This document shows positions 1 to 45,309 of a DNA stretch of 64,000 bases, one piece after another. The stretch is taken from positions 64,001-128,000 of the IMG/VR virus record IMGVR_UViG_3300025120_000017. One strand, given 5' to 3'. Origin of the DNA: a virus. Under the pieces are notes generated by a model, which saw only the letters and a list, made by a program, of their open reading frames with translations, searched no databases and was not told the origin of the DNA. Position 1 is the stretch's first letter; each line of letters begins with the position of its first letter. The translations under genes and the position numbers were made by a program.

Positions 1-744
1 ATTTCCTTCATTAACTCCAGACTCTTCAGACATATTCATATATCTATAAAGTTTATTATATAATGCTCTAAGATCTTTTGTTAAAGTGCGAATTTTTTTG
101 CTATCATCTTTCATGATCATACTGTAAATATGTTCACCATCTGCATCATCTTTAATTAACGCTCTAAGATCGGCAAAATCCTTAGCAGCCTGAGCAGCAT
201 TTTCAACAACTAATGATTCTTTGATCTTATGCTTTCTCATAAAATCTCTCGCCATATCAATTGCATTTCTTAAATCAGTAACATCTAGTTCTGCCCAGGT
301 TATATTACCTTGTAAAAGTACTTCAGATTCATCATCCCACTTTGCAGTAGTTCTCATATCACCTTGATCATAAATTAATTCTTCAAGATCTCCAATTTCC
401 TCAACATAATCATTATTTGATTCATTAATATTTGTGGCATTAATTACTCTTTTACCAAGTTTTGATAATTTATAATGAGTTTCGCCATTTTTCTCAAAAG
501 TTACTAAATATCTGGAATTCTTTTTAATCCACTGAGGACTAGTTTTTCTACCGCTCTCTTCATTAGCAGATTTAATGTATTCCATTAAGTCAGTTTTACA
601 ACAAGATCCTTGCTCAGATACAAATCCAAGAATTTTTTGTCTAACTGGAGCATTTGCACCAACTACTGTTGATGCATACTTTCCATATTTTCTCTTAACT
701 TGAATAGTTCTTCTTTCGTTTAAAAAGCTTTTATAACTCTTCAT
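1..744 (-). CDS. Partial (runs off the left edge) modular internal-head-like protein with capsid-targeting-like leader; first module winged-HTH-like
   Basis: Not in the ORF track; translated by hand: ATG at 744, MKSYKSFLNERRTIQ..., open for 248 codons to position 1. Linkers NINE|S, IKESLVVE|N, ESGVNE|G. Module 1 (VRQKILGFVSEQG...YLVTFEKNGETHYKLSKLGKRVI) resembles a wHTH. Confidence 0.75.
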   Translation of the reverse strand, partial: MKSYKSFLNERRTIQVKRKYGKYASTVVGANAPVRQKILGFVSEQGSCCKTDLMEYIKSANEESGRKTSPQWIKKNSRYLVTFEKNGETHYKLSKLGKRVINATNINESNNDYVEEIGDLEELIYDQGDMRTTAKWDDESEVLLQGNITWAELDVTDLRNAIDMARDFMRKHKIKESLVVENAAQAAKDFADLRALIKDDADGEHIYSMIMKDDSKKIRTLTKDLRALYNKLYRYMNMSEESGVNEGN

Positions 745-769
745 TTTAAATGTTTTTATTTTTGATGAT

Positions 770-1774
770 TTAAAATACAATCATAGATTCATCTCCATTA
801 ACTTCAACGAATTTTATATTATTTGATTTAAGTATTTTAATTACATCTTTCATTGTCATCATTCCAGATATGGATTCATCTCCGATAACAAAAGACATTT
901 TCTTAGATAATTTTTTTAATTGAGCCGCAGTAGATTCATCAAAATCATCAAATTCAATTTCAGATAATTCCCCAGCATAATCAGCAAGCTCTGATGGTAC
1001 ATCAGATTCATTAACCTTCCCAAAAGATTCTTCAACTCTATCAGAAACAACAATTCCTAAGTATTTCTCAATTTCTTCTTTTGAGAATCCTTTCTTAGCC
1101 AATTCATCGATTATCTTTGTTAAAGTACTTCCTACAATAGAGTCAAGTTTTCTTTTCATAAGCTTAACATCGCCTGCTTCACCAATAAACTCTTCAGCAT
1201 TTTCTTTATCTTCAGCATCAACATCCTCAACATCGTATTCTTCATCACCGACTTTAAATGTTTTTTCGTCATTTGCAATTGCCTTAGCTCTAGCAGCACT
1301 GAATGCATTTCCTTCTTTAACAGATTCAAATTGATGTCCTACAATTTTAAGACCTGCTACGCCTGGAAAAAATTCCCCTTGATCTGTTTGTATTCTACCG
1401 CTTGATGCTGAATGACGAGGTTCAGAAAAACCTTTAACTACAATAGCATCACCTCTAAAGTCTTTAGTCTTATAAGGTAATTTAACAACTTTTCCGGTTT
1501 TTTCATCTACTAACTTAGCTGATTCATTAACTGATTCGTTAGCAAATCTTGCCACGCCTTTATCAAATGCCTTATGATATTTTTTAGGAATATGGTCAGA
1601 TTTTAGGTAACTAATAAGTTCCTCTGCGCTATCCCACATTTGGTTAGCTGCCTCATCTGCATCGCTTGTATATTGACCAGCTGCATTAATGATTTCCATT
1701 GCAATATCCTGGTCAAGTCCATACATTTCATTAACAGACTTGCTTTTATTTATAAACCTTTTATAACTTTTCAT
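770..1774 (-). CDS. Modular internal-head/prohead-core-like protein
   Basis: Leader MKSYKRFINKSKSVNE; internal linkers ESVNE|S, ESVKE|G, FIGE|A, KVNE|S; acidic, lysine-rich composition typical of T4-type core/internal proteins. Confidence 0.65.
   Translation of the reverse strand: MKSYKRFINKSKSVNEMYGLDQDIAMEIINAAGQYTSDADEAANQMWDSAEELISYLKSDHIPKKYHKAFDKGVARFANESVNESAKLVDEKTGKVVKLPYKTKDFRGDAIVVKGFSEPRHSASSGRIQTDQGEFFPGVAGLKIVGHQFESVKEGNAFSAARAKAIANDEKTFKVGDEEYDVEDVDAEDKENAEEFIGEAGDVKLMKRKLDSIVGSTLTKIIDELAKKGFSKEEIEKYLGIVVSDRVEESFGKVNESDVPSELADYAGELSEIEFDDFDESTAAQLKKLSKKMSFVIGDESISGMMTMKDVIKILKSNNIKFVEVNGDESMIVF
1001..1180. repeat. 180-nt coding direct repeat, copy 1 (module EAGDVKLMKRKLDSIVGSTL...RVEESFxKVNESD)
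   Basis: Near-identical in DNA and protein to 2568..2747. Confidence 0.95.
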
Positions 1775-1786
1775 TTTAAATCTTTT

Positions 1787-2515
1787 TTATTTTATTTTCA
1801 ATAAGTCATTTATAAACTTTTCAACATCCTTTCCTTTACTTAAAATAACATCAGCAGTTTCATCATCTTCACTAAATGGTATAGGATATTCTATTGCAAT
1901 TCCATTACCTGCTTTGGATATATTAGCGTCATATCTATCAATATCTTGGATTGATGTGTTTTTAACTTTACCTGTCTTATTAAAATTTGATAGTACTGAA
2001 ATTAAAGTACTAATCTCATCTTCATCAAAAACCATTTCAGATTCACCATTAAAATCTATAGCAACACCCTGAGATGCTTTAGATACCGATACATCAGATT
2101 CATTAACTGATTCATTCATTGGAATATCAACACCTAGTAATATTACGCTAACAGTTGGAGTACCACCTACGCTAAATCCTGGCAAAAATGCTTTAGCTTT
2201 TTTTCCTTTTTTAGATATTGATTCGCCTGCCTTCTTTATAATATTTCTAATCTTTGCAGTTTTTGGATCATCTTCATCAGTAAATGATGAATATCCATTA
2301 TCGTCATCATATACTTTAATATCTTTAAGAGCTTTAGCAGTAAAATCAAACTTTAAAACAGGAAATTCCTTTCTTCCATCCATGTTAAGTTCAAGTTTAG
2401 GATTTTGTAATAAACCTGTCTTCATCATGACATCTTGTGCATATTTAATCTGTGCATCTGTAAAATTATCATTAACATGCTTTGCTTCATTAACAAAACT
2501 TTTATAACTTTTCAT
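1787..2515 (-). CDS. Two-module internal-head-like protein
   Basis: Leader MKSYKSFVNE|AK; central linker PMNESVNE|SDV separates two unrelated domains. Confidence 0.65.
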   Translation of the reverse strand: MKSYKSFVNEAKHVNDNFTDAQIKYAQDVMMKTGLLQNPKLELNMDGRKEFPVLKFDFTAKALKDIKVYDDDNGYSSFTDEDDPKTAKIRNIIKKAGESISKKGKKAKAFLPGFSVGGTPTVSVILLGVDIPMNESVNESDVSVSKASQGVAIDFNGESEMVFDEDEISTLISVLSNFNKTGKVKNTSIQDIDRYDANISKAGNGIAIEYPIPFSEDDETADVILSKGKDVEKFINDLLKIK

Positions 2516-2528
2516 CTTAAACTATTTT

Positions 2529-3143
2529 TTATTTTTCAGTGGATGCCATATTTCCTTCACCGTCTGCATCTGATTCATTAACCTTTTTAAAAGATTCTTC
2601 AACTCTATCAGAAACAACAATCTCCATATACTTTTCGATTTCCTCTTTTGAAAAACCTTTCTTAGCTAATTCATCGATAATCTTCTTTAGTGTAGATCCT
2701 ACAATAGAGTCAAGTTTTCTTTTCATAAGCTTAACATCTCCTGCTTCAGTAATTCCTGATAATGCTTCAGTAACTTTTGCAGTTATTTCTTGGTCATCAT
2801 TAACAACTTCATCACCATCTCCGGATTTTGTTGGTTTACCTTTTGCTACTTCTTTATCTTCTATTTCATCAGATGATTCATCACCATCACCCATATCTTT
2901 AGAAACCTCTTTGCCAGCACCGTTTCCATTTTCTTGGTCTTCGTTATCTGCTTTTACCATTTCTGAAACTTCTCCGTCCCATTCTGATTCTATTTCGTTA
3001 AAGAATTTTTTCTTTTCTCCAGTAGATAAGTCAGCAGGTGAATCCGCGCCGTACTCAGCTAATTTTTCTTTAAAGAAATCTGCATATTCTTTTTGCTTTT
3101 TAGACTTCTCTTCTTCTAGTATAATTTGTCCTAAACTTCTCAT
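2529..3143 (-). CDS. Acidic prohead-core-like protein carrying the shared 60-aa module
   Basis: MRSLGQIILE|E start, D/E-rich middle, ITE|AGDVKL... module shared with 770..1774. Confidence 0.6.
   Translation of the reverse strand: MRSLGQIILEEEKSKKQKEYADFFKEKLAEYGADSPADLSTGEKKKFFNEIESEWDGEVSEMVKADNEDQENGNGAGKEVSKDMGDGDESSDEIEDKEVAKGKPTKSGDGDEVVNDDQEITAKVTEALSGITEAGDVKLMKRKLDSIVGSTLKKIIDELAKKGFSKEEIEKYMEIVVSDRVEESFKKVNESDADGEGNMASTEK
2568..2747. repeat. 180-nt coding direct repeat, copy 2
   Basis: Near-identical to 1001..1180. Confidence 0.95.
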
Positions 3144-3161
3144 AGTGAGTTTTATTTTTTG

Positions 3162-3175
3162 TTTTTATATTTAAT
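3162..3175 (-). promoter_or_regulatory. Candidate late promoter ATTAAATATAAAAA
   Basis: One of six exact copies lying roughly 10-20 nt upstream of minus-strand starts; shares TAAATA with the T4 late promoter TATAAATA. Confidence 0.65.
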
Positions 3176-3179
3176 CTAT

Positions 3180-3842
3180 TTATTTAATTCCATTCACAGG
3201 CATTCTAACCATTTCCTTATTAAACCGCTTTTCTTTATTTTCTTTAAATCCAAATCTTTTATAAAATTCTTTAAGTCTAGATGTTGAGCTTCCAAATTTA
3301 TCTGTTGTATCAAGAGTTAATATAAAACTTTGGTTATCTGCAAATTTAATAAGATCTTCCATGATTCTTGATCCTATTCCACTATTTTTATGAGTTTTAT
3401 TTACTTCTAAATAATTTAGCATAATAACATCTTCATTAGTTGTTATTGGATAATAGGATAATTTAATATCTTCAACAGGAAACTTCTTTAGTATGCTATC
3501 AGCAAATTCTTTAACCATTTTGGTTTTAGTTTTAATATCTTCTTTAAGGCCATCATATTTTTTATAACTTAATAGCCAACCTCTTAGCACTTTAGTAATT
3601 GAATCTGCGTGAGTTCCTTCAGGTTTTTCTATTGTTGTAATATTAACAGTAATATCACCATCTTGTAAACTTACTACTCCCGCATCTTGAAGAATTTTAT
3701 ATTCTTTTTCTCCATATGTATTTTTAATAAAATATGCAACTTGTCCTAAAAGATCATATTGACTGTTTTCAACCATTACATTAGGTATAGTACCAATAGG
3801 ATATAATTTAGATTGATTAATAAATTTTTTTAACCTCTTCAT
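3180..3842 (-). CDS. GNAT-family acetyltransferase domain protein with capsid-targeting-like leader
   Basis: LEVNKTHKNSGIGSRIM (acetyl-CoA-binding motif A) and LKEFYKRFGF (motif B) at the C-terminus; N-terminus MKRLKKFINQ. Confidence 0.75.
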   Translation of the reverse strand: MKRLKKFINQSKLYPIGTIPNVMVENSQYDLLGQVAYFIKNTYGEKEYKILQDAGVVSLQDGDITVNITTIEKPEGTHADSITKVLRGWLLSYKKYDGLKEDIKTKTKMVKEFADSILKKFPVEDIKLSYYPITTNEDVIMLNYLEVNKTHKNSGIGSRIMEDLIKFADNQSFILTLDTTDKFGSSTSRLKEFYKRFGFKENKEKRFNKEMVRMPVNGIK

Positions 3843-5362
3843 AAATATATTTCTTTTATTTTATATGGAAACTTTTGTTCTTTATATATTTTCTGTCTTG
3901 CCTTGCCATGAAAGTATACTAAATTCTTTTTAGTACTTCTTAAAATGTCAGTATAATCAAAAACATATAATATAGCCTTATCATCGTGAAGTCTTAATCC
4001 TCTACCTAAACTTTGTCTTATAATTATATCACTTTTAAAACTTTCAGTTAAGTGTATGTAATGTATATTTTTTACATTAATTCCAGTAGAAAAAGTACCA
4101 TAAGATGCTACAAGAACTTTATCTTTCCCATGTTCCATAAGATGTTTGATTTCATTCCTAGCGTTTTTATCAACCCCGCCATCAATGTAATAAACTTTCT
4201 TATTAGTATTTTCATTTATATATTTATAAAGGTCCTTGCCATATACTGTTCTATGAAATAGTACTAATTCATTGCCTTTACATTTATCAACAACTCTTTT
4301 TATAACTTCAATACGTTGTTTATTTTGTATGATAACATCTTGCTCCATTCTAAGAAGCTTTGATTTGTCATCTATTGTTGCTGTGATTTCATCAAAAGAT
4401 TCTTTTATTTTATCTGAGTGATGTAATTCTAAAACATTTATAAAAAGCTTAGATATATGACCTTTATCTTGAAGTTCTTTTGCTTTTATTTCAGTAATAA
4501 GTGGACCTAGATATGCTTGTAATGTTAGCCAATCAAGAGTTCCTTTTTTAGGTACTGTACCTGTTAGACCAAATCTTCTATCTGCACTATGACACCTTCC
4601 TAAAATATCTTGAATTGATTTTGCTTTTACTTTATGAGTTTCATCACAGCATATAGTATCAAATGCCGATAAGAAACTATCAGAAAATTTAACTAGACTT
4701 TGAAATGTTCCTACGAAAATATTTTGGTCATATGTATATTCTTTTGATTCTCCTCCATGAATTTGCTTTATTTCTAATAGTGTTTTATTATTAGGTTTTA
4801 AAAAGCTATTATATTCATGAAAGTCTTCAAATGCTTGTATTACTAAATTGATTGTAGGTACAATCATAAGACATTTTTTAGATAATCCTTTATCTAATAA
4901 ATATGAAAATGCTATATAAATGATTAAAGATTTTCCTGCACTGGTAGCAAGTTCACTAATAGATAATTTATATTTAAGTATTTTATAGGCAGAGTTAATT
5001 TGATAATCTCTAGGAGCAAACGGTTCACCTTTTTTATCAGTAGCATCTTCAAATTTGCTATTTACCCATTCACTAAATTCGTTAAATTCCAAATCATAAA
5101 AAAGATTTCTTAAACCGTCTATTTCAATATCATAACGATATTTTTTAGCAACTTCTCTAAGCTCCATCCATAATCCTGATGGCACATACTTATCTTGATG
5201 AAAATATGATATTATACCATTCCATTTTGCCTTAACTGGGTTAGGTAAAAAATTATAGTATTCTAGTTTTTTTGTTAATGATTTTTGGAGTTGCCCTTTT
5301 TCAGTCCTATCAGCATCTACTAAAGTAAGAATCCTATTATTATGTGATAGTGTGAATTTCAT
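3839..5362 (-). CDS. uvsW: UvsW-like SF2 DNA helicase
   Basis: PRDYQ, ATSAGKS (Walker A), DETH, GLTGT, QSLGRGLR; about 500 aa, as T4 UvsW. Confidence 0.9.
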   Translation of the reverse strand: MKFTLSHNNRILTLVDADRTEKGQLQKSLTKKLEYYNFLPNPVKAKWNGIISYFHQDKYVPSGLWMELREVAKKYRYDIEIDGLRNLFYDLEFNEFSEWVNSKFEDATDKKGEPFAPRDYQINSAYKILKYKLSISELATSAGKSLIIYIAFSYLLDKGLSKKCLMIVPTINLVIQAFEDFHEYNSFLKPNNKTLLEIKQIHGGESKEYTYDQNIFVGTFQSLVKFSDSFLSAFDTICCDETHKVKAKSIQDILGRCHSADRRFGLTGTVPKKGTLDWLTLQAYLGPLITEIKAKELQDKGHISKLFINVLELHHSDKIKESFDEITATIDDKSKLLRMEQDVIIQNKQRIEVIKRVVDKCKGNELVLFHRTVYGKDLYKYINENTNKKVYYIDGGVDKNARNEIKHLMEHGKDKVLVASYGTFSTGINVKNIHYIHLTESFKSDIIIRQSLGRGLRLHDDKAILYVFDYTDILRSTKKNLVYFHGKARQKIYKEQKFPYKIKEIYL

Positions 5363-5385
5363 TAATGTGTATTTTTATAATATAT

Positions 5386-5850
5386 TTAATAACCGCCACT
5401 TAGGAACCTAGTTGACTCTATTAAGTATTTTATTGCAAATCCAATCTTATCAATAGTTTCAATAGTTCTTCTATAATAATCTATTTGGTTTTCTAATACA
5501 GTTTTAAAATTTGTCTTAGGTTCAAGATCAGCATCAATATGTTTATGTATTTCACTATCATTTAATCTAACATTATATTCTGTCTTATACTTAAAATACA
5601 TATGCTTTCGTTCTTCACCAATTCTTTCGCTATGTTTGCGAATTTTTGAGCGTAGGTTAGAAATTTTATCACTTAACCTATGTCTTTGTGAAGATGTATG
5701 TACTTGTAACTCAGCAACTTCTTTAATATCAGTTAGTTTACTTATAATATTTTCATGGATAAATTTACCAATTTCATCTCTTTCAGATTCAAACTTTAAT
5801 TCAAGTTCTTGAACCTTTTTATAATATGCATCTTTTTGTTCTTTGTTCAT
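5386..5850 (-). CDS. UvsY-like recombination mediator
   Basis: 154-aa helical protein next to uvsW; C-terminal IDKIGFAIKYLIESTRFLSG resembles UvsY C-termini. Confidence 0.6.
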   Translation of the reverse strand: MNKEQKDAYYKKVQELELKFESERDEIGKFIHENIISKLTDIKEVAELQVHTSSQRHRLSDKISNLRSKIRKHSERIGEERKHMYFKYKTEYNVRLNDSEIHKHIDADLEPKTNFKTVLENQIDYYRRTIETIDKIGFAIKYLIESTRFLSGGY

Positions 5851-6074
5851 TAAAATAGAGAATTGTCTGCTGACTTATCAGCGTTTGTTATTGTTTTATC
5901 TATAGGATCAGATGTAGGAATTTCATCTACATCATTAATGATTAATTTAGATGTTGCTTTTTTTCTATATGCTCTTATAAACCATTTTCCTAAAGGTAAT
6001 TTTAAATCGCCAGTAGGTGCTTTAGTTGCCTTTTTAAATAATATACCTATTTCTTTATACATAATACATATCAT
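5850..6074 (-). CDS. Small hypothetical protein (start may be MYKEIG at 6062)
   Basis: Fills the gap between primase and UvsY-like genes with abutting stop/start. Confidence 0.5.
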   Translation of the reverse strand: MICIMYKEIGILFKKATKAPTGDLKLPLGKWFIRAYRKKATSKLIINDVDEIPTSDPIDKTITNADKSADNSLF

Positions 6075-8407: not shown

Positions 8408-9412
8408 CTAAATTTTTACTGCTTCTACATCTAAACTTTCCATAAAATTTTCAGGAATGTTACCTAATTTATCTTGATCTTTTAAGTACTCAATAGTATC
8501 TTGAATTGCATCATGAATTGTTTTAACAGGTTTCCATTCTGTAAACATTTGTGCTTTTACACTATTTGCATAAATACTATGAGCTTCTCCATTAATTTCA
8601 GGAAATTGAATAAAGTCAACTTTTTTACCCATCTTATATGCAATTACTTTAACAATATCTATAAGACTTGTTGCTCTACCCGTTCCTAAATTAAAAGTGC
8701 CTGTGATATCTTTGTTATCTAACAAGAGTCTATGAAATGCGTTTACATCATCAACGTGTATAAAATCTCTTTCTCTTGTTTCATCACCAAATATGATTGG
8801 TTTATTGCCTTGCATATATCTAATGATAACTCCTGCAAAAAGCGGTGGAACTGTTCTTGTATAGTCTTGCATACACCCAGCAACATTAAAGTATCTTAAT
8901 GCAACCCATTTCATACCATATAGTTTTTTATATGATTCTGCTAGTGAAGCAACTGCAGCTTTTGAAGTACTATAAATTGTTTTAGGATTAGATTGTTCTT
9001 CTCTATATCCTCCTTGATATAAATAAGAATCTTCATATACAGCGCTAGTTTCACTAAAAACAACTTTAACATTATATTTTACAGCAATGTTAAAAACATT
9101 GATACTTCCCATTAAGTTATTATCATAGCAATCAGCTTGATTCTTATCACAATCATAAATGCTAACAAGACCCGCAAAATGATAGATAATATCTACACCT
9201 CCTAAAATATCAATAGCATCTTCAAGATCATTAGGTTTTCTAATATCACCTTCATAAAACTTTACCTTATCATGAATCTCTGGCATATAAGTACCTTGAC
9301 CTAAATTATCTAAAATAGCAATGTTGTCACTATCATAGCCTTCTTTTAATAAATCAGCGATAAAATTAGTTCCTATAAAACCACATCCACCTGTTATCAG
9401 AATCTTTTTCAT
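8408..9412 (-). CDS. NAD-dependent sugar epimerase/dehydratase (GalE-like extended SDR)
   Basis: ILITGGCGFIG, YSTSK (YxxxK), LRYFNVAG, RDFIHVDDV, FNLGTG. Confidence 0.9.
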   Translation of the reverse strand: MKKILITGGCGFIGTNFIADLLKEGYDSDNIAILDNLGQGTYMPEIHDKVKFYEGDIRKPNDLEDAIDILGGVDIIYHFAGLVSIYDCDKNQADCYDNNLMGSINVFNIAVKYNVKVVFSETSAVYEDSYLYQGGYREEQSNPKTIYSTSKAAVASLAESYKKLYGMKWVALRYFNVAGCMQDYTRTVPPLFAGVIIRYMQGNKPIIFGDETRERDFIHVDDVNAFHRLLLDNKDITGTFNLGTGRATSLIDIVKVIAYKMGKKVDFIQFPEINGEAHSIYANSVKAQMFTEWKPVKTIHDAIQDTIEYLKDQDKLGNIPENFMESLDVEAVKI

Positions 9413-9638
9413 TTCTTTTTATTAATTGAATAACAGTTATCTTATTTTTGTTTAAAATTAAAAAAATTAGAGTATTCTTAAACAAATATCTGGATTGTGT
9501 ATTTAATATATTGTAAAATCTCTAAGGAAGTTGAGACTCTGATTCTTTTAGAGTAACTATAAGGAGTTAATATTCTGAAACTATAAAGAGAAGAAATAGA
9601 ATATAAAAAGTATACATATAATAACTAAATGCATCTTA

Positions 9639-10115
9639 ATGAAAAGTAGAATAATAATAGTAGGAGCAGGTGGATCTGGTAAAGACCATTTAAGACAAAG
9701 ATTTATTGATAGAGGATATAAACCTAGTATAAGTTATACCACAAGACCTCCTAGAGATGGAGAAATTGAAGGGGTAGATTATTATTTCATTAATGAAGGC
9801 GCTTTTAAGTATGCGATAAAGCAAGGTGAGTTTTTTGAGTTTAGAGAATTTAACAGCTGGTATTATGGAACAAGTAATGTTGCTTTTAAATCTGCTAACT
9901 TATTTATAATGACTCCGCCTTCAATACATAAATTATCTAAAGAGATTAGAGAAACTTCTTTTATAATTTATTTAGATATACCAGAACATATTCGCATAAA
10001 GCGTCTTTCTGATAGAAAAGATGCAGATAGTGTTAAAAGAAGAGTAATTGCAGATAAAGAAATGTTTGATTGGTTTGTGGATTATGATCTTAGAATATCT
10101 GATCCTAACTTTTGA
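9639..10115 (+). CDS. gmk: Guanylate kinase-like nucleotide monophosphate kinase
   Basis: GAGGSGKD P-loop, SYTTRPPRDGEIEGVDYYF, WYYGT; the only credible plus-strand gene in the window. Confidence 0.85.
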   Translation: MKSRIIIVGAGGSGKDHLRQRFIDRGYKPSISYTTRPPRDGEIEGVDYYFINEGAFKYAIKQGEFFEFREFNSWYYGTSNVAFKSANLFIMTPPSIHKLSKEIRETSFIIYLDIPEHIRIKRLSDRKDADSVKRRVIADKEMFDWFVDYDLRISDPNF

Positions 10116-10195
10116 TTAAATAAACTACCTTCCTTATACAGCGAGGTTGCTAAATATTAAATTGTAACATTCTCTAAGCAACCTCCTGTACTTTC

Positions 10196-10702
10196 TTAAT
10201 ATCTTGTTATCTTTTTTATTGCTCGTTTGTCCCAAATACAACCTGATGAAACATCCCAAGGTCTAATCCAACTTCCTATAGGTCCCCACGGGTGTTTAAT
10301 TTCTATTCCTTGCCATCCATCTTTTTCAACATCTTCCCATTTTATACCACTAACAGTATCTGGAAATCCTATTAAACCATATTTTGCCTCAAAGTCTTTT
10401 TGAGACATGTCTTTACCTAATCTTAATACGTTTTTATAGTTTATCTCTATTTTATGAAGGTTTCCTGCTTCCCAATCTGGCATATTTTGTCTAACCCAAT
10501 CAATCCACTCAGTTCCAAATGAATACCATAAACCGCTAGGCTTAAAGTTCATATAGCTTTTAGCAGGAGTGTTTTTTTGTTTTGTGTTTCGAGTTTTTAT
10601 AGTATAATCAGATGACATTATAACTTTATCACTTGATTTTATTTTAGCATAATCTTCATCTACTATAATTTTATTTTCAAAAAACTTATCTAACCTTTTC
10701 AT
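10196..10702 (-). CDS. ADP-ribosyltransferase-fold-like protein with capsid-targeting-like leader
   Basis: Start reassigned to the ATG at 10702 (MKRLDKFFEN), just after the upstream stop; motifs KPSGLWYS, GWQGIEI, WDVSSGCIWD resemble phage ART-fold families. Confidence 0.45.
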   Translation of the reverse strand: MKRLDKFFENKIIVDEDYAKIKSSDKVIMSSDYTIKTRNTKQKNTPAKSYMNFKPSGLWYSFGTEWIDWVRQNMPDWEAGNLHKIEINYKNVLRLGKDMSQKDFEAKYGLIGFPDTVSGIKWEDVEKDGWQGIEIKHPWGPIGSWIRPWDVSSGCIWDKRAIKKITRY

Positions 10703-10703
10703 T

Positions 10704-11210
10704 TTATTTCTTAAATTGAGGCTCAATTCCAAATTGCTCAAAAAGCCTTTCAAGCGGTTTGGTAAAATTTCCTCTTTTGTTTTTATATTCAGGTATTTTC
10801 TTTTTGCCGTTAACTGCTTTAACTAATTTATTATAAGAACTCTTCATTAGTATAGGCCTTCTTGGTTTTTCAGTAGGGTGAATCCATAATTCACCTTCTT
10901 GTATTTTATTATGTTCTAAATAATTTGCAAGATTTCTTAAAAAACTTATTATATCAATATGCTTAGACAACCCTAACCTATTAAATGAATTAGTTATTTT
11001 ACCTTCAAGTGCATTTGCTTGAAATTGTATTGCTCCTCTACATAAACCTTTTCCAGTTTCATCAGGAAGCTCTGCAACTAATTTATGCTGATGGTCTAAT
11101 ACAATTTCTTCAGGTGGATATTTATTACCTAATAAAGGACATATGCCTTTTTGCTCAGCATGCCATTTTTCTTTAAGTGCTTTTATATCTTTGCTTTCTA
11201 ATTGCTTCAT
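10704..11210 (-). CDS. Recombination endonuclease VII-like resolvase (T4 gp49-like)
   Basis: QKGICPL, VLDHQH, RGAI..ANALEGKI, FLRNLANYL, IHP. Confidence 0.85.
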   Translation of the reverse strand: MKQLESKDIKALKEKWHAEQKGICPLLGNKYPPEEIVLDHQHKLVAELPDETGKGLCRGAIQFQANALEGKITNSFNRLGLSKHIDIISFLRNLANYLEHNKIQEGELWIHPTEKPRRPILMKSSYNKLVKAVNGKKKIPEYKNKRGNFTKPLERLFEQFGIEPQFKK

Positions 11211-11506
11211 TTATTTGTAGGTAAAAGTTTCCAAACATATATTGAATCTGAATGTGTTAAAAACTTTCCACCATCTTCAGTTTCTTCTAATATCTCTTTA
11301 ACTATATTAGTGCTTAATTTTCCACATATAAACCTGAAATTTACAGTAGGCTTAAATGGAATAGGGCCTCTAAATGCATCGTTATTTTCAATATTAGGAG
11401 TGTGTCCTTTTTCTCTATAGCAATAACCTAAAGCATCTGGGCTTAATAAATCAAGCTTGTTTAATATTTCCATATTAATATGAGTTTGCTTTATCTTCAT
11501 CCCCAA
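11207..11506 (-). CDS. Hypothetical protein
   Basis: Tightly packed ORF; no motif recognised. Confidence 0.5.
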   Translation of the reverse strand: MGMKIKQTHINMEILNKLDLLSPDALGYCYREKGHTPNIENNDAFRGPIPFKPTVNFRFICGKLSTNIVKEILEETEDGGKFLTHSDSIYVWKLLPTNK

Positions 11507-11751
11507 TCGCTATCAGCTTGATTATTATTTATCTCATCTTCTGCTATTTTCTTAATAAGCATTTCAAACTTAACAGATGTTGTTCCACTATAAATATTTT
11601 CCATTTCATCCATTTTTCTAGCAGCATCTAAAAAAGCTTCTAAATTAACTCCATTTCCACCTTTTTTATTTATAATTTGCATTTGCTTTAAAACAAGCTT
11701 TTCCATATCATTGCTTGTGTTCCTATGATTCATTTCTTGTATAGTTTTCAT
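11497..11751 (-). CDS. Hypothetical protein
   Basis: Start overlaps the upstream TGA stop (TGATG). Confidence 0.55.
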   Translation of the reverse strand: MKTIQEMNHRNTSNDMEKLVLKQMQIINKKGGNGVNLEAFLDAARKMDEMENIYSGTTSVKFEMLIKKIAEDEINNNQADSDWG

Positions 11752-12329
11752 CAGTATGTAATATCTTTTTTATCTTGTGCTATAATTGATTTTATTTCCT
11801 TCACAAGCTTTGCAGTTGTTTTAGGATACCTATTTGTTCCAAAGTTATTGTAGAAACTTATAAAGCCATCTTCAGCTATGTCAATAAATAAAGTATCTTT
11901 TGCATTAACAAAGCCTTTCTTAGTAACACAGTCATATTCAAAAAATACATCATATTCACCATCAGCGTTATTAACGCCAATATCATATGTTGCTTTAGGG
12001 CCATTAGGAAACTTGCTTGTTAAAAACGCCGCAACTGATTCAGGCGTTATAGGTGCTTTAGCTTCTAAAATATTTCCATCTTTATCAAAGAAATCATCTG
12101 GGTCTAAATGATAATATCCCATTATGTCACTCACAATATCTTGATGGTCTGAATTATCCATATCATATTCCTTCTTAATGAACGCTTTAATTTTATCATC
12201 AGAAGGTTGACCTTTTCCTAAAACTTTTTTAATCTTAGCGATAGAATTATATTTATGATCTCTGTCGCTATCTTCACTTAAATGTGAATACTTCTTAGCT
12301 TCGTTTAAAAATTCGTTTAAGCTTTTCAT
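11751..12329 (-). CDS. Two-module internal-head-like protein
   Basis: Leader MKSLNEFLNE|AK and internal NILE|AK junction. Confidence 0.65.
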   Translation of the reverse strand: MKSLNEFLNEAKKYSHLSEDSDRDHKYNSIAKIKKVLGKGQPSDDKIKAFIKKEYDMDNSDHQDIVSDIMGYYHLDPDDFFDKDGNILEAKAPITPESVAAFLTSKFPNGPKATYDIGVNNADGEYDVFFEYDCVTKKGFVNAKDTLFIDIAEDGFISFYNNFGTNRYPKTTAKLVKEIKSIIAQDKKDITY

Positions 12330-12330
12330 T

Positions 12331-12984
12331 TTAAAATTTTAATTTCTTTCCTAGTGCTGCACCTATTGCAGTACCTACAAGTCTACTTGTGAGTACATTA
12401 TATAAAGGCGAGTTATCTTTAATGCCTAAAGTGTTTGCTAATAATTTACCTATAGATTTACCGAAAGCTAAACCTCCGATACCTCCTAGTATAGAACCAA
12501 ATATTCCTTCATTAAGTAATTCGATTTGTGATTCATTAACGCTTTCAGGATTCATAAATATATCAATAATAGCAGATGCCTGTTCTTTAGTTAATTCCAT
12601 TTCAACATCTTCCTCATCTTCATCTTCTTCCATATCAGCTAAAATGTCACTAAACTTTCTAACCTTCACGGTCCCAGTAGGTATATCACCACTTCCCAAT
12701 GAATTACCATTAGGTAATGAAACTCCACCCATTCCGTTTACATTTGCTCCGGTTGCTGCTCCAAGATCTTCTCCAACTGCATCAGCATTTGTTTCATATA
12801 TTTCAATAGAGTTATTTTCCAGTTCATCTAAAAATCCAACTATAGAATCTTCATTATTTGATTCATAATAATTAGTTGATGTCATTGCTATTCCTTGCTT
12901 TGACCATGTACCATCTTTATATATTTCTTGAGCTTCCCTAGCGTCTCTTACTGCTACTTCTATGTAATATTTGTACTTGCTCAT
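12331..12984 (-). CDS. Modular protein ending in a glycine-rich amphipathic segment
   Basis: Start reassigned to MSKYKYY at 12984 because the 14-mer promoter motif covers the longer start; contains ESVNE|S and LLNE|GIFGSILGGIGG... Confidence 0.6.
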   Translation of the reverse strand: MSKYKYYIEVAVRDAREAQEIYKDGTWSKQGIAMTSTNYYESNNEDSIVGFLDELENNSIEIYETNADAVGEDLGAATGANVNGMGGVSLPNGNSLGSGDIPTGTVKVRKFSDILADMEEDEDEEDVEMELTKEQASAIIDIFMNPESVNESQIELLNEGIFGSILGGIGGLAFGKSIGKLLANTLGIKDNSPLYNVLTSRLVGTAIGAALGKKLKF

Positions 12985-12997
12985 TTTTAAGTTATTC

Positions 12998-13011
12998 TTT
13001 TTATATTTAAT
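12998..13011 (-). promoter_or_regulatory. Candidate late promoter ATTAAATATAAAAA
   Basis: Exact copy of the 14-mer. Confidence 0.65.
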
Positions 13012-40094: not shown

Positions 40095-40475
40095 TCATGT
40101 AGTGTATGCAGAGATATATGGAATATCTTCTCTATAATGTGTTGATAATCTAGAATAACCATCAAGAACTTCATCATTAAAAATTACAATAGGATTATCC
40201 AATTCATCATCATGTGGAATTTCATCCCACTCTTCAGAATCTTCTCCATATCTATCTTCACCGCTTTTTATATATTCCTTAACATCTTTATCTTTTCTAA
40301 TTACATCTTTAACTTTAACTTTTTTTAATGTAAATGTCTTATTAGATTTAAGAATTTTTTCTATAAAAAAGTCAGGAACATCGCTACTATCTGGTGTGAT
40401 GTAAGTAATGTAATCAGCAATTTCTTGCGCTGATTTACTTTTAGCCTCATTTAAAAATTTCTTATAACTTTTCAT
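40095..40475 (-). CDS. ParB/Srx-like domain protein with capsid-targeting-like leader
   Basis: MKSYKKFLNE|AK; NPIVIFNDEVLDGYSRL matches the ParB-N PIxV...DGxxR pattern. Confidence 0.6.
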   Translation of the reverse strand: MKSYKKFLNEAKSKSAQEIADYITYITPDSSDVPDFFIEKILKSNKTFTLKKVKVKDVIRKDKDVKEYIKSGEDRYGEDSEEWDEIPHDDELDNPIVIFNDEVLDGYSRLSTHYREDIPYISAYTT

Positions 40476-44325: not shown

Positions 44326-45309
44326 TTATTTAAGTTTAGTTAATAAATCAGACCATAAATCAACTCTTGAAATATCAGGAAAGTTATATCCTGATTTTTT
44401 TCCTCTCATATCTTCAACACCGACTTCTTTTTCAAGATGCTTTATAACCATTTTAGTAATATCTTTATCGTTAAAACGTATAATAGGCTTTTCCATTATA
44501 GGTGAATAAGGACCTCCATACATATTATATTGACCTTCTTGAATAGCAAATATTTCTTTACCAAATTTTGTTTTACCTTTTACTTTAAAAGTGTTGCTGC
44601 TCCACTCTATATAGCCTTCTAATAGATCCAACTCAGCAGCAATTTGACTAGCTGCATCCTCTTCACTACTGTTATATTCTGCCCAAAGGGATCTATCAAT
44701 ATCATACTCTACGTTAATCTCTGCAGGAATCATTATTTTATCTCTTAAAACTCCTTCATTAACTGATTCCATTTTACCAGATGATAGGTCTTTAAGATCT
44801 TTATTAGCATTATCTATGTTTTTACTTTCTCTTTTGAATATTCCAATAAATTTCTTAACAACACTTTTTAAACCTTGTATCATTTTAGAAAGAATATTTT
44901 CATCGATACTTTCAGATTCATTTGTTCCTATTTCAAAAGAATGTCCTATATTGGTTATCTTTTTAGAAGCTGCTAAAGATTCTTCTAATATGTTTCTTGT
45001 TGCTGAATTAACTTTACCTAAAGCCATTTCAAACGCATTCTTATACGAAGCTGAACTTCTCTCATGTGCAAATCTTTTAATCTTTATCAAATAATCATCA
45101 GTTTCTGCTAGCTTTTCACCAGTTTCCTGCATTGAATCCAATAAAGGTGTTATTTGCTTACCATATTCACCAAATTGTTTTTTAGCTTCTTTAAGCTTTG
45201 CTGATAGTTGATTAATCTCTTCTTGTAAAAGATAAAAATCATCCATTGATGCAACAATTGAAGGGTCTTCTATTTTAGATTCTTTTATAAAATTTCGTAA
45301 ACTTTTCAT
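44326..45309 (-). CDS. Modular internal-head-like protein
   Basis: Leader MKSLRNFIKE|SK; linkers NESESIDE|N and MESVNE|G; own candidate late promoter. Confidence 0.65.
   Translation of the reverse strand: MKSLRNFIKESKIEDPSIVASMDDFYLLQEEINQLSAKLKEAKKQFGEYGKQITPLLDSMQETGEKLAETDDYLIKIKRFAHERSSASYKNAFEMALGKVNSATRNILEESLAASKKITNIGHSFEIGTNESESIDENILSKMIQGLKSVVKKFIGIFKRESKNIDNANKDLKDLSSGKMESVNEGVLRDKIMIPAEINVEYDIDRSLWAEYNSSEEDAASQIAAELDLLEGYIEWSSNTFKVKGKTKFGKEIFAIQEGQYNMYGGPYSPIMEKPIIRFNDKDITKMVIKHLEKEVGVEDMRGKKSGYNFPDISRVDLWSDLLTKLK

What the first reader, a model, noticed from the sequence alone, without database searches (positions are those of the whole stretch)
1001..2747. 60-aa module duplicated between two genes with boundaries at putative cleavage sites
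Seen: 1001..1180 and 2568..2747 are near-identical and encode E|AGDVKLMKRKLDSIVGSTL.KIIDELAKKGFSKEEIEKY..IVVSDRVEESF.KVNE|SD. Similarity begins at I-x-E|A and ends just after VNE|SD, with unrelated flanks. Inference: the unit of exchange is the protease-released module, which is direct evidence of module shuffling among the cargo genes.
Basis: partly seen in the sequence, partly recalled or inferred. Interest (0 to 1): 0.8.

Follow-up and report, generated by a model that had tools for sequence, protein, structure and literature searches.

The report
Shuffled module in phage head-cargo genes
Two neighbouring genes of an uncultured marine giant T4-like phage share a real 60-codon module. Its edges fall on the short Glu-ending linkers that divide a large family of marine phage proteins into mix-and-match modules, and these linkers look like cutting sites for the phage's head protease, though no cutting has been shown.

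Summary
Window 1001-1180 and 2568-2747 are a direct repeat, 86% identical in DNA and 93% in protein, with no gaps. Both copies lie in frame on the minus strand, in ORF 770..1774 (P0001) and ORF 2529..3143 (P0002). Fourteen codon differences are silent and four change the residue, so this is neither an assembly artefact nor a fresh copy.

The contig is a 172-kb marine T4-like phage with a gp21-type prohead protease and a gp23-type capsid protein. About 26 of its genes start with a leader resembling the T4 capsid-targeting sequence.

P0001 is a five-piece mosaic. Two other pieces recur in about 120 marine phage proteins, in many combinations, always bounded by hydrophobic-x-Glu linkers. One piece also sits inside protease-scaffold and scaffold-like proteins.

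The duplicated module is the native C-terminal domain of the P0002 family, a syntenic gene downstream of a helicase. The gains and losses seen in relatives map to these linkers. The linker codons are over-represented as DNA and could serve as recombination microhomology.

Module shuffling at the linkers is well supported. Cleavage and packaging are inferred only. The exchanged unit may have been two modules rather than one. First-stage notes of this scan describe the same kind of system in another genome.

The parts
770..1774 (-). P0001, 334 aa: leader-bearing five-piece mosaic gene that hosts repeat copy A
   Evidence: ORF. Segment-wise BLAST of 123 homologues shows independent pieces at residues 1-80, 81-149, 150-199, 200-256 and 257-334.
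1001..1180 (-). Repeat copy A: codons 199-258 of P0001. The module proper is residues 200-256 (1007-1177).
   Evidence: It begins at I-G-E|A and ends two codons after V-N-E.
1178..1327 (-). 'GNAF' module of P0001 (residues 150-199). It is widespread in marine phage proteins and often tandem.
   Evidence: about 70 proteins, always preceded by [VIL]-x-E and ending F/Y-x-x-E. It is also found inside a Peptidase_S77 protease-scaffold protein (P0118) and a scaffold-like protein (P0095).
1328..1522 (-). 'mid' module of P0001 (residues 85-149), a small beta-rich domain
   Evidence: Alignment of 33 contexts with unrelated flanks. In the AF2 model, the folded core (pLDDT 74-86) covers P0001 residues 84-149 and both flanks are disordered. 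No significant fold match.
1727..1774 (-). N-terminal leader of P0001. It is CTS-like; the first hydrophobic-N-E is at residues 14-16.
   Evidence: The leader pattern starts 26 of 218 ORFs but follows only 7 of 867 internal Met residues.
2529..3143 (-). P0002, 204 aa: leader variant, helical N-domain, acidic disordered linker and module copy B. It is the syntenic gene downstream of the helicase.
   Evidence: phrog_28651 on residues 11-65; AF2: helices 4-54, disorder 58-114, helices 137-161 and 166-193; synteny.
2568..2747 (-). Repeat copy B: codons 133-192 of P0002. The module proper is residues 134-190 (2574-2744).
   Evidence: It begins at I-T-E|A and ends two codons after V-N-E.
1787..2515 (-). 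P0003, 242 aa: leader-bearing gene between the two repeat hosts. It has an N-E-S-V-N-E-S linker.
   Evidence: It is absent from the orthologous loci L011 and L008.
1..744 (-). P0004: leader-bearing gene that runs off the window start. It is the conserved downstream neighbour of the P0002 family in relatives.
   Evidence: Orthologues are found in L008, L011 and many distant loci.
1005..1015 (-). 11-nt linker word encoding V-N-E-S at the right edge of copy A
   Evidence: 5 matches in the window against 0.13 expected. The others are at 1521-1531, 2097-2107, 2572-2582 and 12530-12540.
2572..2582 (-). The same 11-nt linker word at the right edge of copy B
1521..1540 (-). 20-nt linker stretch in P0001 (N/mid junction), 95% identical to 2097-2116 in P0003
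   Evidence: family D18.
1728..1793 (-). Conserved gene-junction cassette: end of the upstream gene, short spacer and leader codons. Copies also lie at 698-763 and 2469-2534.
   Evidence: families D2 and D3.
3180..3842 (-). GNAT-type acetyltransferase gene with a leader-like start, immediately upstream of P0002
   Evidence: (weak PF13508 hit on the orthologue).
3839..5362 (-). DEAD/ResIII helicase, used as the syntenic anchor to find orthologous loci

Best explanation
The two genes belong to a large set of leader-bearing genes in an uncultured marine giant T4-like phage. These genes most likely encode proteins that are carried into the prohead and then cut by the phage's gp21-type protease.

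The proteins are strings of autonomous 50-70-aa modules joined by stereotyped linkers, typically E-S-hydrophobic-x-E. The 57-aa two-helix module is the native C-terminal domain of the P0002 family. That family is the gene that sits downstream of a helicase across this phage clade.

A copy of the module now sits in the neighbouring extra gene P0001, between its GNAF module and its C-terminal domain. It may have arrived together with the GNAF module. Both joints lie at linker sites: exactly at Glu|Ala on the left, and two codons after V-N-E on the right.

The likely mechanism is recombination between the short linker-coding DNA words that the genes share. Selection then keeps only in-frame products that preserve whole domains.

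Shown: the repeat, its exact edges, purifying selection on both copies, recurrence of modules with linker boundaries in relatives, and presence of the protease and capsid genes. Inferred: packaging, cleavage at the linkers, direction of transfer and the recombination mechanism.
For: - Repeat and edges.
- Purifying selection: 14 silent against 4 replacement codon differences.
- T4-type head genes in the same genome: Peptidase_S77 at 47 bits and Gp23 at 124 bits.
- T4 gp23 is cut at L-T-E65|A66. This follows from the full-length (521 aa) and mature (456 aa) PDB chains aligned. The capsid protein here has L-N-E at residues 46-48, and the protease ORF has V-N-E just after the protease domain.
- Leader: the pattern starts 26 of 218 ORFs but follows only 7 of 867 internal Met residues (p=2e-13). 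It resembles the 10-residue T4 capsid-targeting sequence described in PMC9026906 and PMC5694885.
- Linker motif ES.?[VILM].E: six-fold enriched in leader genes (p=6e-5).
- Mosaic structure of P0001 and the flank listings.
- The folded core of the mid module ends at the linkers.
- In the P0002 model, the I-T-E|A-G-D site lies in the loop between two helices.
- The GNAF module is embedded in a protease-scaffold protein and in a scaffold-like protein.
- Orthologous loci: L011 and L008 have the P0002-type gene followed directly by the P0004-type gene, so P0003 and P0001 are extra here.
- L054 has a 456-aa gene after the helicase. It has the same N-domain followed by modules separated by E-S-V-x-x-E linkers.
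- The linker DNA word is found 5 times against 0.13 expected.
Against: - There are no proteomic or structural data for this phage or any relative. No cultured phage carries these modules, so cleavage and packaging rest on motif analogy.
- P0001's own leader has Lys, not Glu, at position 10.
- Roughly one gene in eight carries the leader, more than expected for head cargo. Some of that signal may reflect something else.
- Hydrophobic-x-E is common in these acidic proteins, at about 2.6% of positions. The all-against-all breakpoint test shows only 1.6-fold enrichment, and its points are not independent.
- Silent-site divergence between the two copies (13 of 47 codons) matches that between orthologues in other phages (14-18 of 47). 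The event is therefore old, or the copy came from another phage. Later gene conversion could also explain why the copies remain closest to each other.
- P0001 and P0007 share the junction F-[VI]-G-E before A-G-D, which suggests a two-module unit.
- The AF2 model of the module itself has low confidence (pLDDT 45-60).
Confidence: 0.6

Rival explanations
1. These are ordinary multi-domain proteins. The modules are real and do shuffle, but the Glu-ending linkers are only flexible inter-domain spacers and are never cut. The shared N-terminus is not a capsid-targeting signal; it could reflect expression or recombination constraints at gene starts.
For: - Any viable domain shuffling is expected to break at linkers.
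- The gene-junction cassette is conserved as DNA across three gene starts (families D2 and D3), so part of the leader's conservation could be at the nucleotide level.
- 26 leader genes is a large number.
- No cleavage data exist.
Against: - The linker keeps its hydrophobic-x-E pattern even where its sequence has otherwise drifted.
- The same motif sits at the expected propeptide position of the capsid protein and after the protease domain.
- A gp21-type protease, whose known sites end in Glu, is encoded in the genome (PMC5694885).
- The GNAF module occurs inside protease-scaffold proteins.
- The linker motif is enriched specifically in leader genes.
Confidence: 0.25
2. The two copies are old paralogues kept similar by gene conversion within the genome. 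The edges of similarity then only mark where homology between the genes ends. They do not record a discrete transfer of a protease-delimited unit.
For: - Identity is patchy: perfect tracts at codons 202-215 and 241-251 flank a diverged centre.
- Silent divergence is no lower than between phages, yet the two copies are closest in replacement changes.
- The GNAF-module junction is shared with P0007.
Against: - This still requires an original event that placed the module between two linker sites in P0001, so it changes the timing rather than the boundary result.
- 47 codons are too few to separate the scenarios.
Confidence: 0.1
3. The repeat is an assembly artefact or a chimeric contig.
For: The contig is a metagenome assembly, and reads could not be examined.
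Against: - The copies differ at 14% of bases, mostly at silent positions, and both are in frame.
- Copy B and its neighbours recur on the independent contig L010.
- The GNAF-module junction recurs in two other assemblies.
Confidence: 0.02

Closest known systems
T4 internal proteins IPI/IPII/IPIII and Alt, with the capsid-targeting sequence (Mullaney and Black 1996, as reviewed in PMC9026906, PMC5694885 and PMC3012670)
   Same: Both have a leader of about 10 residues at the N-terminus of otherwise unrelated proteins, ending in hydrophobic-x-Glu. Both occur in a phage with a gp21-family protease and a gp23-family capsid protein. In both, the set of proteins is highly variable between related phages.
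   Different: T4 internal proteins are single small proteins cut once. Here many proteins are strings of several modules with internal sites. The number of leader genes is far larger (about 26). Packaging and cleavage are untested.
Multi-site processing of head and inner-body or ejection proteins in giant phages phiKZ, 201phi2-1 and SPN3US (PMC9026906, PMC5694885, PMC10052503)
   Same: Both involve a giant phage, a gp21-related protease that cuts after Glu in a three-residue motif, and several sites per substrate.
   Different: The residue at P3 in those phages is Ala, Ser or Gly; here it is Val, Ile or Leu, as in T4. No sequence relation to those proteins was found. Module-by-module reassortment at the sites has not been described for them in the papers I read.
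T4 prohead core proteins gp22, gp67 and gp68, which are cut into small peptides (PMC5694885)
   Same: Core and scaffold proteins are degraded at many Glu sites. Here the GNAF module sits inside protease-scaffold and scaffold-like proteins.
   Different: The modules here are strongly conserved folded or helical units, 70-85% identical across unrelated contexts. That argues for a function of their own rather than disposable scaffold.
Modular shuffling in the plastic regions of T4-type genomes through short conserved DNA cassettes (recalled from memory: Repoila 1994, cited in PMC3012670; Arbiol 2010, not checked)
   Same: Short conserved DNA at unit boundaries is proposed to guide recombination. 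A conserved gene-start cassette is also present here.
   Different: In that case whole genes are the shuffled units. Here the units are also sub-genic modules within open reading frames, and the conserved DNA encodes the linker.

Membership tests
T4-type capsid-targeted internal head proteins | N-terminal targeting peptide of about 10 residues ending in hydrophobic-x-Glu | tested here: inconclusive
   P0002 has I-L-E at residues 8-10 and P0003/P0004 have V/L-N-E at 8-10. P0001 has Lys at 10, and its first site is at residues 14-16. The pattern is N-terminus-specific. The resemblance to the T4 sequence is by pattern only.
T4-type capsid-targeted internal head proteins | The phage encodes a gp21-family prohead protease and a gp23-family capsid protein | tested here: met
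   PF03420 at 47.1 bits (cut-off 27) and PF07068 at 123.8 bits (cut-off 24.4) in the same contig.
T4-type capsid-targeted internal head proteins | The protein is present inside the mature head, with its leader removed | not testable with these tools
   The phage is uncultured. No match in deposited phage genomes.
Prohead-protease polyprotein substrates | Several internal sites matching the protease's motif, placed between folded units | tested here: met
   Linkers lie at residues 80/84, 150/154, 199 and 256 of P0001. The same boundaries appear in about 120 homologous contexts. The mid-module fold ends at the linkers.
Prohead-protease polyprotein substrates | Demonstrated cleavage at those sites | not testable with these tools
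   This needs proteomics or an in vitro assay.
Known protein domain families (Pfam, PHROGs) for the 57-aa module | Significant profile match | tested here: not met
   No Pfam match above cut-off and no PHROG match on the module. Only four to five relatives were found among 5.8 billion sequences and 1.8 billion cluster representatives.
Recent segmental duplication | Silent-site divergence much lower than between orthologues of related phages | tested here: not met
   13 silent differences in 47 codons between the two copies, against 14-18 between copies from different phages.

The most novel reading that the evidence does not exclude
A broad clade of marine giant T4-like phages encodes its capsid-packaged proteins as polyproteins of independently reassorting 50-70-aa modules. 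The protease-site linker plays two roles: it is the cut site in the protein, and its conserved codons are the recombination microhomology in the DNA. Cargo would then evolve by a process akin to exon shuffling, with each released module acting as a separate small effector or structural peptide.
Probability: 0.4. Interest if true: 0.8.

Novelty: new variant of a known kind. Interest (0 to 1): 0.62.

Why it matters
Proteins injected with phage DNA are the first phage products to meet host defences. In T4 they are known to be highly variable anti-defence factors.

If the reading holds, it gives a simple sequence rule for finding packaged cargo in uncultured marine giant phages: a leader plus E-S-hydrophobic-x-E linkers. 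It also gives a mechanism for how that cargo diversifies, namely reassortment of modules at cut-site linkers. And it yields a catalogue of small, strongly conserved modules of unknown function to test, including the mid, GNAF and two-helix modules.

The rule also suggests where foreign proteins could be inserted for packaging experiments in such phages.

Tried and rejected
- Pfam and PHROG scans of the four tandem genes and of the module gave nothing above threshold, apart from phrog_28651 (function unknown) on the P0002 N-domain.
- tblastn of P0001 against 50,697 deposited phage genomes found no match.
- A profile search of 1.8 billion cluster representatives with the module added only weak hits with several short matched stretches.
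- A feature search of the ESM Atlas scored about 0.8, which is noise level.
- Foldseek of the mid-module model against the PDB found no match at E<=0.001. The weak hits were small beta-barrels of the SH3, Tudor or Sm type and are not reliable.
- A single MAFFT alignment of P0001 with 106 module fragments misplaced the fragments and was dropped. Per-module alignments were used instead.
- The all-against-all HSP-endpoint test gave enrichment (30% against 18% expected), but the endpoints are noisy and not independent, so I treat it as weak support.
- I first read P0002 as lacking a leader. After seeing the variant leaders in other genes I corrected this.
- A RiPP-like reading (leader plus multiple cores) was considered and rejected. 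The modules are folded 50-70-aa domains, and one of them sits in protease-scaffold proteins.
- Weak similarity was seen between P0001's C-terminal piece and the C-terminal domain of the 549-aa family, and between the module start and the scaffold tail. It may reflect composition only and is not relied on.
- An exact look-up of P0001 in other assemblies found nothing on record.
Full report
**Observation.** The repeat finder on window 1-6000 gives one outstanding direct repeat, 1000-1186 against 2567-2753: 187 nt, 86% identical, no gaps. The next family is 66 nt at 76-77%. All long ORFs here lie on the minus strand. The copies fall in frame inside ORF 770..1774 (P0001, 334 aa) and ORF 2529..3143 (P0002, 204 aa).

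A codon table places the shared block at codons 199-258 of P0001 and 133-192 of P0002. Upstream codons differ at one to three bases each until Ile197. Identity starts at Glu199-Ala200. Downstream, identity runs through V-N-E-S-D and then stops.

Eighteen of the 60 codons differ, 14 silently and 4 with a residue change. Both copies are therefore under purifying selection, and the repeat cannot be a collapsed or duplicated assembly.

**Genome context.** The window is bases 64001-128000 of a 171.8-kb virus contig with 29.8% G+C. CheckV estimates it at 67% complete. The contig encodes:
- a Peptidase_S77 (T4 gp21-type) prohead protease, fused to a repeat-rich scaffold-like tail;
- a Gp23-type major capsid protein next to it, and a likely portal gene (unverified) beside them;
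- T4-like baseplate genes in the window.

The nearest deposited capsid protein is from a 462-kb uncultured huge phage, at 47.6% identity. Lak phages follow at 33.6%. Related contigs come from marine metagenomes.

**Leader and linker motifs.**
- 26 of 218 ORFs start with M-[KR]-x-[LYIF]-x-x-[FIY], against 7 of 867 internal Met positions. Fourteen of them also have Glu at position 10.
- This resembles the 10-residue capsid-targeting sequence of the T4 internal proteins (PMC9026906, PMC5694885, PMC3012670).
- All four tandem genes at the window start carry a leader. P0002 has a variant with I-L-E at residues 8-10. P0001 has Lys at position 10.
- T4 gp23 is cut at L-T-E65|A66. This can be read from the full-length and mature PDB chains.
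- The capsid protein here has L-N-E at residues 46-48, and the protease ORF has V-N-E right after the protease domain.
- The linker pattern ES.?[VILM].E is six-fold enriched in leader genes outside the leader itself (p=6e-5).

**P0001 is a mosaic.** A search of 5.8 billion proteins returned 189 hits that each cover only part of P0001, at 50-88% local identity. Segment-wise BLAST resolves five pieces:

| Piece | Residues | Recurrence |
|---|---|---|
| N | 1-80 | few homologues (e.g. P0088) |
| mid | 81-149 | about 60 proteins |
| GNAF | 150-199 | about 70 proteins, often two or three in tandem |
| repeat module | 200-256 | P0001 and the P0002 family only |
| C | 257-334 | not resolved |

Pieces occur in many orders and with many partners. 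The flank listing and the 33-context alignment show three things:
- mid is always preceded by [VLI]-x-E and followed by F/Y-E-S-hydrophobic-x-E;
- GNAF is always preceded by [VIL]-x-E and ends F/Y-x-x-E;
- the pattern persists where the linker sequence itself varies.

An AlphaFold model of mid with flanks puts the confident beta-rich core at P0001 residues 84-149, with both flanks disordered. GNAF also occurs near the C-terminus of a Peptidase_S77 protease-scaffold protein (P0118) and of a coiled-coil scaffold-like protein (P0095). This ties the module to prohead core proteins.

**The duplicated module.** It is rare. Apart from the two window copies, it is found only in P0005 (a near-identical relative, L010), P0006, P0007 and P0129. 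All of these are members of the P0002 family: leader, helical N-domain (phrog_28651), acidic linker, then the module at or near the C-terminus.

The AF2 model of P0002 shows the N-domain (pLDDT about 80), a disordered stretch at 58-114, a short helix, a loop containing I-T-E|A-G-D, and then two helices of low confidence.

The gene is syntenic. In L011 (helicase 75% identical) the order is helicase, P0002-type gene, P0004-type gene. In L008 it is acetyltransferase, P0007, P0004-type gene. In many distant loci (helicase about 44% identical), a gene with the same N-domain follows the helicase and carries GNAF units, with a P0004-type gene further on. In L054 that gene is a 456-aa string of modules separated by E-S-V-x-x-E linkers.

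P0003 and P0001 are therefore extra genes in the window lineage, and the module is native to the P0002 family.

**Breakpoints in relatives.**
- The site before the module is hydrophobic-x-E then A-G-D in all five contexts, although the upstream sequence differs.
- P0007 has a GNAF unit inserted between V-E-E|G and V-G-E|A.
- P0006 has an added C-terminal piece that starts after V-N-E.
- P0129 ends soon after the module and has no site.

The junction events I could score all lie at linkers.

**Caveats on history.** Module DNA identity is 85.8% for P0001-P0002, 79.4% for P0001-P0007 and 80.9% for P0002-P0006. Silent differences are similar in all pairs, at 13-18 of 47 codons. The copy is therefore old, or it came from a related phage. 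Gene conversion may have kept the two window copies closest to each other.

P0001 and P0007 alone share the unusual end of GNAF (F-[VI]-G-E) joined to the module, and their GNAF units are 84.7% identical in DNA. The unit moved may have been GNAF plus the module.

**DNA microhomology.** The 11-nt word for V-N-E-S occurs five times in the window against 0.13 expected. Four of the five lie in P0001, P0002 and P0003, including the right edge of both copies. A 20-nt linker stretch is 95% identical between P0001 and P0003 (D18). A 66-nt gene-junction cassette recurs at three gene starts (D2/D3). These are plausible recombination substrates, but this is inference.

**Comparison with known systems.** The closest analogues are:
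- the T4 internal proteins with their targeting sequence;
- the multi-site processing of head proteins in phiKZ-like phages.

I found no paper describing module reassortment at protease-site linkers. No cultured phage carries these modules. First-stage notes of this scan describe the same linker system and the 549-aa GNAF protein in another genome. Those notes are unchecked leads, though they fit what I saw in P0038.

**Verdict.** Module shuffling at conserved Glu-ending linkers is well supported by comparative data. Protease release and head packaging are likely but untested. The single-module unit and the recency implied by 'near-identical' need qualification.

Noticed in passing
L001/L002 (genome C1:39345-40979, outside the window): The prohead protease is fused to a long scaffold-like tail that contains about eight tandem copies of a 14-aa unit (consensus near S-G-I-E-N-W-S-E-H-V-T-E-T-V). 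P0118 from another phage has the same protease-plus-repeat design with a different repeat.
   Followed up: partly
window 3180-3842 (-): A GNAT-type acetyltransferase starts with a leader-like peptide (M-K-R-L-K-K-F-I-N-Q). It sits at the head of the cargo-gene array, a possible packaged enzyme analogous to T4 Alt. The L008 relative has a shorter acetyltransferase-like gene (125 aa; called so from its sequence only) at the same place.
   Followed up: no
whole genome, e.g. window 11751-12329, 40095-40475, 44326-45309, and 85233-92428 beyond the window: About 26 ORFs share the N-terminal leader. A dense block of them lies 21-28 kb beyond the window end, and two lie just upstream of the likely portal gene (C1:44722-45903).
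   Followed up: partly
P0038 family (549 aa; 31 members on 49 contigs up to 147 kb); L024, L057, L062, L063 near 9000-13000: A widespread marine phage protein combines the P0002-type N-domain, a domain with a Y-M-H-Y-D-G-Y-P motif, a helical part, two or three GNAF units and a conserved C-terminal domain. One source labels it RNA polymerase subunit K/omega, which looks spurious.
   Followed up: partly
P0088 and genome C1:44722-45309: A further shared module (motif P-H-M-M-Y-D-x-E-T-G-K) follows a V-N-E linker in both a 561-aa metagenomic protein and the C-terminus of a leader gene next to the head genes. Another module is shared by P0088 and P0029. The module network is larger than the three pieces studied.
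   Followed up: no
P0095, P0118 and about 15 other GNAF proteins: Many GNAF-containing proteins end with the same 25-aa tail after the last GNAF unit (A-K-x-E-L-P-K-K-I-x-L-Y ... F-K-A-L-M). It may be a capsid- or scaffold-binding tail.
   Followed up: no
window 2539-3174 (+): A 211-aa ORF lies antisense to P0002. It is most likely a by-product of the purine-rich acidic linker on the coding strand, not a gene.
   Followed up: no
P0079 and P0080 (about 445 aa): The mid module is fused after a cytidylyltransferase-like domain (PF01467) in leader-bearing proteins. This suggests enzymes can be joined to these modules.
   Followed up: no
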